From Negaprion brevirostris (Eukaryota), in NCBI GenBank assembly GCA_030324005.1, contig JARDVH010000025.1:74355676-74419675 (forward strand): DNA of 64,000 nucleotides, in the 5' to 3' direction. The translations under genes were made by a program, and so were the position numbers. Under the pieces are notes generated by a model. The model was given only the letters and a program-made list of their open reading frames with translations. It was not told where the DNA came from and searched no databases. Every line of letters starts with the position of its first letter. Position 1 is the stretch's first letter. Positions 1 to 59,180 of the stretch are shown piece after piece.

Positions 1-1104
1 AAGAGAATACTTGAGCAAAAGATCAAAAACAAGAGGGCTGAAACATCAAACTCATTTCAAACTCAAAACAGCTTTGAGCTTTATGCAGAAGCTACTGCAT
101 GACTTGCTAAGAGTTTCGAGCACTGCTTTAAGGTGTTTCAGATTCTTCCTCTTCTCATGTTGGCCAGGTTGTTAGTAACTTGGAATAGTTTTGTGTATGT
201 TTAATCAGGTTATTTATCTGGAGAGGTAGAAACTGTAGCCATCCTTCTGTAAAAGATAACATGCATAAAGTATCTAGGATTATATTCCAGACTCTCATGG
301 AATGATTCAACCAACTGCATCTTATAGTCAAATACAGATTTATGATAGCCATACTATTTTGTGTAATGAGTTGGCTCAACCTTTTGATTTATTAAATAAA
401 ACTGTAAAACAGTTTTGATATTGGAAAATAGTACCCTTTTTTGTTAGGAACCAAATATTAAGTTGATCAGCATTGCCTAGCAGCAACATTAGCAAAGATG
501 ACACTCAACTGGAATATACTCAGTAAATCAATAGCATTTGGCTAAGTAGGCAATGTCTGTTGCTTCAGTAACTTGCTTTATCAGTTTGTGGGATATAAAT
601 ACAAAAATATGATTCCGATTAATGCATCAAATCCTATAAATATCTCATAATTATGAAAATATATTCATTATTACGGAAAAATAATAAGGACATTTTTAAA
701 TGTCCGTATTTTCTAAGAGTGTGGTAAAGTTGAGGTCAACTAATAAAAGGTTGAACTGGGGAGAAAACAGAAGAGAAACAGCAGGTTGGGAATTCAGAGA
801 ATTTTAAATGACTCCAATTTAGGCTGGCAATCTATAGTTGCCTCCTTTGATGAATGTTTTAGATCAGTACTGTATAAACATATTCATGAAATAAACGGAC
901 TTACATTCATAGTAAACTTTGGACAGGAAAAGACTGCTCTAATGACCCTGTCCCAAACAGTCAATATTCAGTTTTCTTGTGATGAAGAAAGTGCCAAATG
1001 TTTGAACTTTTTATTGATATCTATACTCTATCATTTATGTTATCCTTCTGATGAGTTCTTCTGAACCTTTGGTTTAATACATTTCCTGTAATTTTGGTGT
1101 CAAA

Positions 1105-10937: not shown

Positions 10938-11059
10938 ATGATGTGGATGTGCCGGCGTTAGACTGGGGTAAACACAGTAAAGAGTCTGACAACACCAGGT
11001 TTTAGTCCAACCGATTTATTTGATAGTAAACTCACAAGCTTTCGAGGGGACTCCCTCTT
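10938..11059 (-). mobile_element. Penelope-type pLTR fragment with partial hammerhead motif (cut by 100-N gap)
   Basis: Homologous to 52233-52357 and 58724-58845. Minus strand reads AA-GAGGG-AGTC-CCCTC-GAAA-GCTT-GTGA, followed by AATAAA. Confidence 0.7.
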
Positions 11060-19049: not shown

Positions 19050-19122
19050 TGCCAAGAGCCAGGATTAAACCAGGGAGCTTTAGATCTTCAGTCTAACACT
19101 TTTACAACTGAGCTATTTCAGC
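19050..19122 (-). pseudogene. tRNA-Phe(GAA) pseudogene
   Basis: 73-nt GCTGAAATAGCTCAGTTGTAAAAGTGTTAGACTGAAGATCTAAAGCTCCCTGGTTTAATCCTGGCTCTTGGCA, colinear with vertebrate tRNA-Phe (12 differences by my count against the recalled sequence). Anticodon arm intact; D-loop GG and T-loop TTCGA are broken. Confidence 0.9.
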
Positions 19123-51650: not shown

Positions 51651-52200
51651 GTCAGGTCTTTTGTTAAGTGTGAGAAAGACAGTTAAAAGCATATTAAATA
51701 TTTAAATGTTCAAACCAACAATCAGTTTCGCTGAAATCTAACGTGTTCAGGCTCAAGCTGATGACTAAGGCCTAATTGAAGTGGAAATGTAGCTATCTAT
51801 ATATATTTGGGTAGAAGCACGTGTTCAGCACAAGCACTGAATGTTGATCATATGCACACTTTTCTTTGACTGTCTGAAGGCTAAGATTGCGCAATTCATT
51901 GAACCCGTGTTATTTTGCCGTTGATTGTGAGAAGGGCGAAATTGTTACTTCATTATCAGCAGCATAATATTTGTACAGATAATGTGTGTGCAGAAACTGT
52001 GTGATAGAAAATGTGTGCGTTATGAAAGCTGGGAAGATGTTTAAGTGGCACCATGTGTACGCTTACCTAGTTTTGAACGCAGAAAAAATTACAGATGGTT
52101 AGTGAAGTGTGAAGAAAAGGCAGTCTTGGTTTATTTTCAGAATGTAGACAATATACCTATTGTATTTCAGATATATTAAAAAGAAAATAATATTTAATGT

Positions 52201-52232
52201 CACACAGTGGTTAGCACTGCTGCCTCACAGCC
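52201..52232 (+). mobile_element. HE1-like SINE head, interrupted by the palindromic element
   Basis: CACAGTGGTTAGCACTGCTGCCTCACAGC. Confidence 0.7.
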
Positions 52233-52320
52233 ATGATGTGGAGATATCCGCATTGGAATGGGGTGGGCACAGTAAGAAACCTCACAACACCAGGTTAAAG
52301 TCCAACAGGTTTAGTTGGTA

Positions 52321-52357
52321 TCACGTGCTTTCGGAGCGCTGCTCCTTCATCAGATGA
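52321..52357 (-). ncRNA. Minimal type I hammerhead ribozyme motif (U16.1 mutated)
   Basis: TCAT-CTGATGA-A-GGAGC-AGC-GCTCC-GAAA-GC-AC-GTGA. Confidence 0.65.
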
Positions 52358-52370
52358 GTCTCATCAGGAC

Positions 52371-52406
52371 TCACCGGATGAAGGAGCAGTGCTCTGAAAG
52401 CTCGTG
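52371..52406 (+). ncRNA. Minimal type I hammerhead ribozyme motif (core CUGA mutated to CGGA)
   Basis: TCAC-CGGATGA-A-GGAGC-AGT-GCTCT-GAAA-GC-TC-GTGA followed by AATAAA. Confidence 0.6.
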
Positions 52407-52563
52407 ATACCAAATAAACCTGTTGGATTTTAAACTGGTGTTGTGAGACTTCCTAATGTGCCTNNNNNNNNNNNNNNNNNNNNNNNNNNNNNNNNNNNNN
52501 NNNNNNNNNNNNNNNNNNNNNNNNNNNNNNNNNNNNNNNNNNNNNNNNNNNNNNNNNNNNNNN

Positions 52564-53460
52564 AGTGCGGCTTAACTAAGGTTCTGTAAACCTGCAACAT
52601 GACTTGCCAATTTTAAACTCAGTGGCCTGGCTGATGAAGGCCAGCGTGCATTATGCCTTCTTAACCACCTTTTCCACCTCTGTTGCCACTTTCAGTGACC
52701 TGTAGACCTGGACACACAGATCCCTCTACCTATCAATACACTTAAGGATTCTGCCTTTTACTGTATATTTCCCATCTGTATTAAACCTTCCAAAATGCAT
52801 TAACTCACATTTGTCTGAATTAAACTTCAGCTGCCATCTGTCCGCCCAATTCTCCAATCGATCTATATCCTGCTGCATTCTCTGATGGTCCTCATCGCTA
52901 TCCGTAATTCCACCAACCTTTGTGTCGTCCACAAACTTACTAATCAAACCAGTTACAATTTCCTCCAAATTATTTATATATATTACAAACAACAAAGGTC
53001 CCAGCACTGATCCCTGAGGAACACCACTTGTCACAGCTCTCCATTCAGAAACACACCCTTCCACTGATACCCTCTATCTTCCATGACCAAGCTGGTTCTG
53101 TATCCATCTTGCCAGGTCATCTCTGATCTGGTGCGATTTCACCTTCTGTACCAGTTCCCAGACTCATCATCCACCAAGCCCTTGTCCTTTTGACCTCGTC
53201 GAAAGCCTTACTAAAATCCATGTAGACAACATCCACTGCTCTATCCTAATCATTCCTCAAAAAAAAACAATCAAGTTAACAAGATGTGACTTGCCTCGCA
53301 TAAAGCCATGCTGACTTTCCCTAATTAGGTCATGCTTTTCCAAATGCATGTAAATCCTATTCCTAAAAATCCTCTCCAATAGTTTCCCAACCTCTGATAT
53401 GAAATTCACCAGTCTGTAATTTCCTGGATTATTCTGATTACCTTTCTTGAGCAGGAGCAA
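52564..53460 (-). mobile_element. CR1 LINE reverse transcriptase fragment (pseudogenised)
   Basis: VTSGVPQGSVLGPLLFVIYINNL...SKFVDDTKVGG and KKGNQNNPGNYRLV...GKLLERI...SQHGFMRGKS. Confidence 0.95.
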
Positions 53461-58519: not shown

Positions 58520-59180
58520 TGGGATGCCGCATCATGGAATCATACAATACAGGAAGGGGCATATCAAGTCTGTCGCTGCTCTTTCAAAAAACAGTCCAGT
58601 TAGTCCCACTCCTCTACTCTTTCCCAATATTCTGGTTTATGCACTCTGCTCCTCTATTTATATGGCTCAGGATTCAATATACTTTATTAACCGATTTGTG
58701 AGCCTGTCCTGCCACTTTCAGTGATGAAGTGGAGATGTCGGCGTTGGACTGGAGTGGACACAGTAAGAAGTCTGATAACACCAGGTTAAAGTCAAACAGG
58801 TTTATTTGGTATCATTAGCTTTTGGAGCCCTGCTGCTTCAACGGGCTCCTTCAACACTCACCTGATGCAGGTGCAGCGCTCCGAACGCTCCTGATAACAA
58901 ATCAACATGTTGAACTTTAACCTGGTGTTGTGAGACTTCTTACTGTGACTTTTGATGATTTGTGGAGAAGCACCCTGTTCTCTTTCCTCTGGCACCCCTT
59001 TCAAATTTATACCATTGAGCTTGTGTTGTTGCTTCTCATTCTTCCTAACAAAATGTATCACAAAACATTTCTCGTCAGTTAATCTGTGATGTATCAGTCT
59101 ATTCCATCAGCCTGCTGATGTCTCTTGAAGCTTATCACTGTTTTCCTCATTGTTCACTACACTTCCTGGTTTTGTGCTGT
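58520..59180 (-). mobile_element. Decayed CR1 fragment split by the palindromic pLTR element
   Basis: MIHFVRKNEKQQHKLNGINLKGVPEERE; CATGGAATCATACAATACAGGAAGGGGCCAT tail. Confidence 0.65.
58724..58950. mobile_element. Palindromic Penelope-type pLTR pair with decayed hammerhead motifs
   Basis: CACAGTAAGAAGTCT.A.AACACCAGGTTAAAG / CTTTAACCTGGTGTTGTGAGACTTCTTACTGTG; plus-strand TCAC-CTGATGC-...-GCTCC-GAAC-GCTC. Confidence 0.8.

What the first reader, a model, noticed from the sequence alone, without database searches (positions are those of the whole stretch)
52233..52463. Palindromic mini-retroelement with back-to-back hammerhead ribozyme motifs
Seen: a hairpin with ~95-bp arms. Each arm reads outward as stem I (TCAC/GTGA) - CUGAUGA - stem II GGAGC/GCUCC - GAAA - palindromic AGCU - cleavage site - AAUAAA-like signal. 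Each arm has a different single core lesion (minus arm U16.1 to A; plus arm CUGA to CGGA), so the consensus of the two is an intact minimal hammerhead. The 7-nt loop TCATCAG is itself the reverse complement of CTGATGA. Established: Penelope-like elements carry minimal type I hammerheads in their pLTRs, thought to cleave as dimers via a palindromic stem III, and they often leave inverted pLTRs. Inference: these ORF-less inverted units may be a non-autonomous retrozyme-like family, or extreme 5'-truncation products. Transcription from either strand would give a long dsRNA hairpin that sequesters the ribozyme.
Basis: partly seen in the sequence, partly recalled or inferred. Interest (0 to 1): 0.72.

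Follow-up and report, generated by a model that had tools for sequence, protein, structure and literature searches.

The report
Cap-marked hairpin stubs of Penelope retroelement
This hairpin is one of many back-to-back stubs of a Penelope-type jumping gene in a shark-like genome; the stubs' inner ends pile up at one spot that often carries an extra G, which likely means the element copied the capped front end of its RNA twice, once onto each strand of the cut site.

Summary
The hairpin is real but is not a self-copying mini-element. It is two head-to-head copies of the hammerhead-bearing end of an endonuclease-positive Penelope-like element (PLE): a 127-nt arm with the PLE 'tail' and a ~94-nt arm without it. 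The family occurs once per 18 kb (53 loci in 0.96 Mb); 20 of 53 are inverted pairs. Across the family, seams vary and target-site duplications are common; the window's seam is unique in the genome. The 'complementary lesions' are ordinary decay. This layout is published. What I add: arm 5' ends pile up just upstream of the ribozyme, about 30 nt below a TATA-like box. An extra G precedes that point in 67 of 100 cases, against 17 of 53 at a control position. This likely marks a capped transcription start, making each arm a strong-stop-like cDNA from uncleaved RNA, primed on each target strand. A peak at the ribozyme cut site was tested and is inconclusive. The scan noted similar stubs before, in this and other shark genomes; a word search of its notes found no cap test.

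The parts
52199..52231 (+). Head fragment of an abundant tRNA-like SINE: the insertion target (HE1-like label recalled, not tested)
   Evidence: 121 BLAST hits of the left flank in the 119 random stretches; other copies continue as SINE where the hairpin starts here
52221..52231 (+). Likely left copy of an ~11-nt target-site duplication (inferred)
   Evidence: Its first 5 nt recur at 52459-52463 just before the gap; family duplications have median ~13 nt in 43 scored pairs
52233..52265 (-). 33-nt PLE tail (+95..+127), ending at the start codon region of the parent ORF; outer priming site (inferred)
   Evidence: Copies continuing past it open the ORF; 68 of 76 inverted pairs carry it on one arm only
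52233..52359 (-). Long arm, +1..+127 of the PLE end
52321..52357 (-). Minimal type I hammerhead, minus arm: core 52353-52347, extra A 52346, stem II 52345-52333, GAAA 52332-52329, U16.1>A at 52326, predicted cut 52325/52324
52360..52360 (-). Extra G before +1; likely copied 5' cap
   Evidence: Longer copies have C here; G in 67 of 100 at +1 vs 17 of 53 at +4
52361..52367 (.). 7-nt seam filler matching the adjacent core; likely templated during end joining
   Evidence: Seam unique in genome; other loci carry different scraps of the same motif
52368..52368 (+). Extra G before +1 of the short arm (could also be part of the templated filler)
52369..52462 (+). Short, tail-less arm (+1..~+94) with decayed hammerhead: core CGGAUGA 52375-52381, GAAA 52396-52399, UC 52402-52403, AATAAA 52413-52418; ends at the inner priming site with microhomology to target (inferred)
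52464..52563 (.). 100-N assembly gap hiding the rest of the right flank
58724..58950 (.). Second head-to-head copy of the same family in the window, with a different seam
10938..11043 (-). Third, tailed arm (other subfamily) running into an assembly gap

Best explanation
The hairpin is two head-to-head copies of the hammerhead-bearing end of an endonuclease-positive Penelope-like element, likely made in one insertion event in which both cut strands of the target primed reverse transcription on capped, uncleaved element RNA. Shown: parent element with RT, CX4CxxC linker and C-terminal GIY-YIG endonuclease; one tailed arm ending at +127 and one tail-less arm ending near +90; target-site duplications; variable seams; a pile-up of 5' ends at +1; an extra G there; a TATA-like box ~30 nt upstream in longer copies. 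Inferred: +1 is a Pol II start; the RNA reads start - hammerhead - 5'UTR - ORF; the enzyme nicks both strands ~13 nt apart; one end primes at +127 and the other, helped by 2-8 nt of microhomology, near +90; both cDNAs run to the cap, which adds the G (strong-stop-like products); the two cDNA ends are trimmed and joined with templated filler. The ribozyme is a passenger here: arms span the cut site intact and decay neutrally.
For: Parent: longer copies continue upstream into an endonuclease C-terminus. L246 starts exactly at +1 and runs into an RT ORF. One shark protein (P0003) matches both the L246 RT piece (64%) and the endonuclease pieces (62-85%); Pfam RVT_1 is over cut-off. Ends: 68 of 76 inverted pairs have one tailed and one tail-less arm; in the random sample 18 of 20 have a single tail. 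Duplications in 53 of 94 pairs vs 1-4 in five shuffles. Overlap >=2 nt with target at the short end in 31 of 43, at the tailed end in 12 of 43. 5' ends at -1..+5: 17 of 65 random arms, 45 of 130 tail-selected arms (p 5e-6 and 4e-19 against +6..+60). Genome-wide 309 matches starting at +1 vs 53 at +4. G before +1 in 67 of the 100 listed of 309 (counted by eye), 43 of 68 after dropping the ATN contexts that filler could explain; background 28%; control 17 of 53. TATA-like motif in 34 of 43 copies reaching upstream, 32 at -32..-28. Arms are not nested: the tail-less arm extends >=10 nt further 5' in 31 of 76 pairs. Arms share a subfamily marker in 51 of 64 pairs vs 34% expected. In four coded runs laid on L210 (three large ones from three further coded organisms, one possibly RNA), loose ends fall at +126/+89..92 and all 12 listed strand-switch joints have one end at +3..-4; 240 joints were not shown. 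Published biochemistry: anole PLE nicks and extends both strands, starts internally at two sites bounding the tail, and uses uncleaved RNA (PMC11167929, main text). An extra G reflects capping at full-length L1 5' junctions (PMC11702581, passages).
Against: No RNA 5'-end data: the start site and cap are inferred from DNA only. In several of the 30 loci inspected, the G is also the last base of the duplication, partner arm or filler (e.g. L337, L338, L353, L359, L362, L365), so cap copying and junction selection cannot be separated case by case. Only 5 of 20 random inverted pairs have both arms near +1; most have one arm trimmed or longer. BLAST ends are good to a few nt only. The anole enzyme in vitro primed without homology, whereas I see microhomology at the short end. 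D. virilis Penelope uses a TATA-less internal promoter (PMC2377424, passages), so the promoter reading is not general. Copies are old (~8.5% from the family majority).
Confidence: 0.7

Rival explanations
1. Snap-back or self-priming: one cDNA folds back at its 3' end and copies itself, and the palindrome centre is later trimmed. Arkhipova 2013 proposed self-priming, on an antisense template, for head-to-head PLE junctions.
For: Arms share the subfamily marker in 51 of 64 pairs; fillers are templated from the nearby motif; the +1 region is a near palindrome; snap-back after full-length cDNA is documented for R2 (PMC11371274, passages); PMC3846280 passages.
Against: Arms are not nested in 31 of 76 pairs. 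Short-arm ends cluster at +85..+97, the same place where solo copies end, which a DNA-templated copy has no reason to respect. The extra G sits at the sense 5' end.
Confidence: 0.14
2. PLE stub as described, but +1 is a reverse-transcriptase stop at the base of hammerhead stem I or another processing site rather than a capped start, and the G is a non-templated addition or junction bias.
For: +1 lies 2 nt from stem I; in D. virilis an intron end maps to the 5' end of helix I (PMC4209133, passages); G-rich partner sequence is available at seams.
Against: No AG precedes +1. No G excess at +4 (17 of 53) or at +36 (18 of 91 purines). TATA-like box at the expected distance. An RT moving 3' to 5' on the RNA would meet the stem from the other side.
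Confidence: 0.1
3. A non-autonomous hairpin or retrozyme-like family that is transcribed and re-inserted as a unit.
For: Very high copy number; stereotyped size; L017 has a seam resembling the window's, though it was picked for likeness to the window.
Against: Window seam: 1 match genome-wide with one mismatch allowed, control 1. All 45 printed seams differ. Stubs starting at +1 lack the upstream promoter. Retrozymes are head-to-tail tandems (bioRxiv 2026.07.22.740005, part 1).
Confidence: 0.05
4. Assembly fold-back artefact beside a gap.
For: Hairpin abuts a gap; 14 of 53 random loci touch a gap or stretch edge without a resolved partner arm.
Against: Arms differ by 13%; the same layout with duplications occurs gap-free in many loci and in other organisms' contigs.
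Confidence: 0.01

Closest known systems
Inverted-pLTR insertions of EN+ Penelope-like elements (Adineta vaga Pen2a_Av, PMC3846280; Craig 2021 Fig. 2 legend, PMC8557442; passages seen)
   Same: Head-to-head inverted pLTR, 30-40-nt tail on one end only, target-site duplication, junction palindromes, pLTR running into the first ORF codons, TATA plus Inr-like motif in the pLTR.
   Different: No ORF between the arms; both arms can end at the same 5' point with an extra G; an estimated tens of thousands of copies.
Anole Poseidon PAc in vitro (Frangieh 2024, PMC11167929; parts 1-2 of 4 read)
   Same: Two internal start sites bounding the tail, the outer ~115 nt downstream of hammerhead A9 (111-118 in PAc); both strands extended; uncleaved RNA used.
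   Different: The shark ORF starts at the tail end, not in stem II; the shark protein has the CX2-5CxxC linker (Neptune/Nematis type); microhomology at the inner site.
Minimal PLE hammerheads (Cervera and De la Pena 2014, PMC4209133; passages seen)
   Same: Type I core, extra nucleotide between 9 and 10.1, G10.1-C11.1 pair, palindromic tiny helix III.
   Different: The two copies lie on opposite strands, so one transcript cannot supply a cis dimer and would fold into a long duplex.
L1 twin priming and cap-derived G (PMC11702581, passages); LTR minus-strand strong-stop DNA (recalled)
   Same: Second priming by the other target strand with microhomology; extra G at complete 5' ends; short cDNA from a site near the RNA 5' end.
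   Different: L1 twin priming inverts non-overlapping parts; here the same segment is copied twice and there is no poly(A) or tRNA priming.
Non-LTR retrozymes (bioRxiv 2026.07.22.740005; part 1 of 5 and passages)
   Same: Non-coding, PLE-related, type I hammerhead.
   Different: Retrozymes are head-to-tail tandem units; these are head-to-head with variable seams.

Membership tests
EN+ Penelope-like element | Single ORF with RT (DKG motif) and C-terminal GIY-YIG endonuclease linked to this end sequence | tested here: met
   No complete copy was recovered from this genome; the link is through P0003 and partial copies. Pfam hit RT only; the endonuclease call rests on motifs.
EN+ Penelope-like element | Hammerhead motif in the terminal repeat | tested here: met
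   Majority core intact; 63 of 161 arms intact. Rfam models did not detect it.
EN+ Penelope-like element | 30-40-nt tail on one end, inverted 5'-truncated copy, target-site duplication | tested here: met
   68 of 76; 53 of 94 vs 1-4. In the window the duplication is only partly visible.
Neptune/Nematis-type PLE | CX2-5CxxC linker before the endonuclease | tested here: met
   Present in P0001-P0003; the region is matched by L120; definition from PMC8557442 passages
Neptune/Nematis-type PLE | RT phylogeny placing it in one clade | not tested
   No reference set on hand
Non-LTR retrozyme | Head-to-tail tandem units each with a hammerhead | tested here: not met
   Window and 20 of 53 random loci are head-to-head
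Non-autonomous element moving as a unit | Fixed internal seam shared by many copies | tested here: not met
Active hammerhead ribozyme | Self-cleavage as monomer or dimer | not testable with these tools
   Both window arms carry core lesions; co-folding favours pairing through the self-complementary stem II
Active hammerhead ribozyme | Genomic footprint: excess of 5' ends at the cut site (+36) | tested here: inconclusive
   91 vs 41 matches, about 1.5-fold after correcting for degeneracy; of 30 inspected, 11 were deletions, mutations or a duplication and 8 shared stem I microhomology
Capped Pol II start at +1 | Extra G at complete 5' ends and TATA about 30 nt upstream | tested here: met
Capped Pol II start at +1 | RNA 5' ends mapped at +1 | not testable with these tools
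   Only contigs were available

The most novel reading that the evidence does not exclude
Shark genomes hold tens of thousands of fossil 'double strong-stop' products showing that PLEs integrate by symmetric two-strand priming on capped, uncleaved sense RNA, with two fixed start sites near the RNA 5' end. Inverted pLTRs, the one-sided tail and direct pLTRs would all be outcomes of one reaction, differing only in which repeat copy each primer uses. The hammerhead would act as an off-switch that removes the cap from 5'-proximal templates.
Probability: 0.45. Interest if true: 0.68.

Novelty: new member of a known kind. Interest (0 to 1): 0.44.

Why it matters
How PLEs, the closest retroelement kin of telomerase, insert and why they leave inverted repeats with a one-sided tail is still open; sense versus antisense template has been debated. 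These stubs give a large natural record with testable predictions: capped sense RNA, both strands primed, ribozyme uncut. Practically, an estimated 45,000 or more such hairpins can mimic miRNA precursors, may break assemblies, and could yield double-stranded RNA if transcribed.

Tried and rejected
Rfam scan: no hammerhead family hit. Pfam GIY-YIG search of the genome returned five loci from other elements, not this family's endonuclease. Pfam on five short fragments of decayed copies: nothing significant. Cut-site (+36) pile-up: 8 of 236 arms started exactly there, but the genome-wide test was confounded by microhomology; control matches were not inspected; not claimed. Depth drop at +1 in other organisms' contigs not used, since depth rises again upstream and may reflect subfamily divergence. 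Sequencing runs: no RNA holder listed. The 26 loci picked for likeness to the window (41 of 52 arms at +1) were left out of the pile-up counts as biased; 27 pairs from that set, the window's own included, are in the duplication, marker, seam and conservation counts. Splice-acceptor reading of +1 rejected (no AG). Arm homogenisation rejected: within-locus identity 86.5% vs 85.5% between loci. Protein atlas gave no result. PMC2632901 and PMC6155905 passages added little. Lunse et al. 2017 on dimeric PLE hammerheads is not held and is recalled only. Paper searches for a prior description found no report of shark PLE hairpin stubs or of a cap G in PLEs. The library lacks most subscription papers and Repbase, and I saw no supplements; those of PMC4209133 and PMC11167929 may bear on this.

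Full report
Observation. The inverted repeat is real: arms 52266-52360 and 52368-52462, 95 nt, 87% complementary, folding at -155 kcal/mol, z = -17.6. Rfam finds no hammerhead here. Two more family members lie in the window. I number the arm from the A two bases upstream of stem I (+1 = 52359 on the minus strand, 52369 on the plus strand).

Family. In 119 evenly spaced 10-kb stretches of large scaffolds (955,739 non-N bases) I found 53 loci: 20 head-to-head pairs, 19 single or other, and 14 unresolved at a gap or edge. Extrapolated, that is about 120,000 loci and at least 45,000 hairpins (inference). Longer copies run upstream through a 3'UTR into an endonuclease C-terminus. Copies that run downstream open an ORF at the very end of the tail; L246 starts exactly at +1 and continues into RT before a gap. 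A search limited to longer proteins gave 15 hits; the 9 of them that carry an organism name are all shark proteins. P0003 covers both the L246 RT piece and the endonuclease pieces and has the DKG motif and a CX4CxxC linker. By the definitions in PMC8557442 (passages) the parent is a C-terminal EN+ PLE of Neptune/Nematis type. I did not recover a complete copy or build a tree.

Anatomy. Of 76 inverted pairs not chosen for likeness to the window, 68 have one arm ending at +115 or beyond and the other at +100 or before; most short ends lie at +85..+97. The tail-selected sets guarantee one tail, but the random set agrees (18 of 20 with a single tail). Target-site duplications score in 53 of 94 pairs against 1-4 in shuffled pairings, median about 13 nt, overlapping the short end by 2 nt or more in 31 of 43 and the tailed end in 12 of 43. 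The window's copy landed in a SINE head and shows 5 nt of the expected duplication before the gap. This layout is described for PLEs (PMC3846280 and PMC8557442, passages), and the two end points match the two internal start sites of the anole enzyme, which extends both strands and uses uncleaved RNA (PMC11167929).

Not a mobile unit. All 45 printed seams differ, from short overlaps to 30 nt of filler made of scraps of the neighbouring motif. The window's seam has one match in the genome, itself, with one mismatch allowed. Core positions are kept at 0.88-0.99, like their neighbours, except CpG positions at 0.6-0.75; 63 of 161 arms keep an intact core. The paired lesions are therefore ordinary decay. 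The family motif fits the published PLE minimal hammerhead, including the extra nucleotide (PMC4209133).

The non-random part. 5' ends fall at -1..+5 in 17 of 65 random arms, 45 of 130 tail-selected arms and 10 of 41 pattern-selected arms; against +6..+60 the first two give p = 5e-6 and 4e-19. Genome-wide, 309 matches start at +1 after two A/T bases, against 53 at +4. The base before +1 is G in 67 of the 100 listed matches (counted by eye; 24 T, 9 A), and in 43 of 68 after dropping ATN contexts; background is 28%. At +4 it is G in 17 of 53 (Fisher p = 4e-5). Longer copies have C there and a TATA-like motif upstream in 34 of 43, 32 of them at -32..-28. An extra G marks copied caps at full-length L1 ends (PMC11702581). 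Against this: in several of the 30 loci inspected the G can also be read as the end of the duplication, partner arm or filler, and no RNA data were available. Contigs of four coded runs laid on L210 show loose ends at the two outer sites, and all 12 listed strand-switch joints have one end at +3..-4; 240 further joints were not shown.

Two primings or a fold-back. The tail-less arm reaches at least 10 nt further 5' in 31 of 76 pairs and the tailed arm in 18, so neither arm is simply a copy of the other; both arms share a subfamily marker in 51 of 64 pairs against 34% expected. This fits two primings on one RNA, or on two RNAs from one source gene. Snap-back with later central deletion (PMC3846280, PMC11371274) is not excluded. 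Only 5 of 20 random pairs have both arms near +1 as here.

Ribozyme role. Arms cross the cut site intact, so most templates were uncut. Eight of 236 arms began exactly at +36, but the genome-wide test gave only about 1.5-fold over a control and was confounded by deletions and stem I microhomology. I make no claim of cleavage in vivo. The two motifs lie on opposite strands, so one transcript cannot form the cis dimer and would fold into a duplex. Whether the locus is transcribed is unknown.

Novelty. The object is a new member of a known kind. Paper searches found no account of shark PLE hairpin stubs or of a cap signature in PLEs, within a library that lacks most subscription papers and Repbase. 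The scan's own notes record similar stubs in at least 16 genomes and 6 findings in this one; one suggests the shared start is the RNA start, and a word search found none on cap and TATA. These notes are unchecked and are not counted as support. Interest 0.44.

Noticed in passing
window 52351-52359 (+) and the mirror site on the other arm: The antisense strand of the arm start reads as a near-perfect 5' splice donor (CAG/GTGAGT in the family; one mismatch in the left copy here). With ~100,000 copies this could affect host splicing or U1 binding.
   Followed up: no
L164, L166, L169, L175, L178, L179, L182: Some arms run 20-220 nt past the tail into the ORF and are followed by a second copy in tandem; in L166 and L178 the second copy starts exactly at the predicted ribozyme cut (+36).
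   Followed up: partly
L045 6247-6801; L149, L158, L160, L161, L197, L223, L231: Lopsided hairpins in which one arm reaches 80-300 nt upstream into the 3'UTR or endonuclease region while the other is short; fits priming on the 3' repeat by one strand and on the 5' repeat by the other.
   Followed up: partly
L306, L312, L325, L327, L330, L331: Recurrent internal deletion that removes the GAAA half of the hammerhead through microhomology between stem II and the cut site.
   Followed up: no
L035, L216-L245: At least two subfamilies differ by a 7-nt insertion just after the cut site and in the tail; some have altered stem II.
   Followed up: partly
random stretches and window 11060, 52464: 16 of 53 family loci touch an assembly gap or stretch edge, suggesting that the hairpins break short-read assembly and are undercounted.
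   Followed up: no
window 52564-53300 (-): Decayed LINE reverse-transcriptase C-terminal fragment after the gap (CR1-like, label recalled); 31 hits in the random stretches.
   Followed up: partly
window 19050-19122 (-): tRNA-like match just over the Rfam gathering score (34 bits), probably a decayed tRNA or SINE head.
   Followed up: no
L152, L153, L154, L155: Other GIY-YIG-bearing PLE families in the genome, distinct from this one; L152 has a 257-aa open stretch.
   Followed up: no
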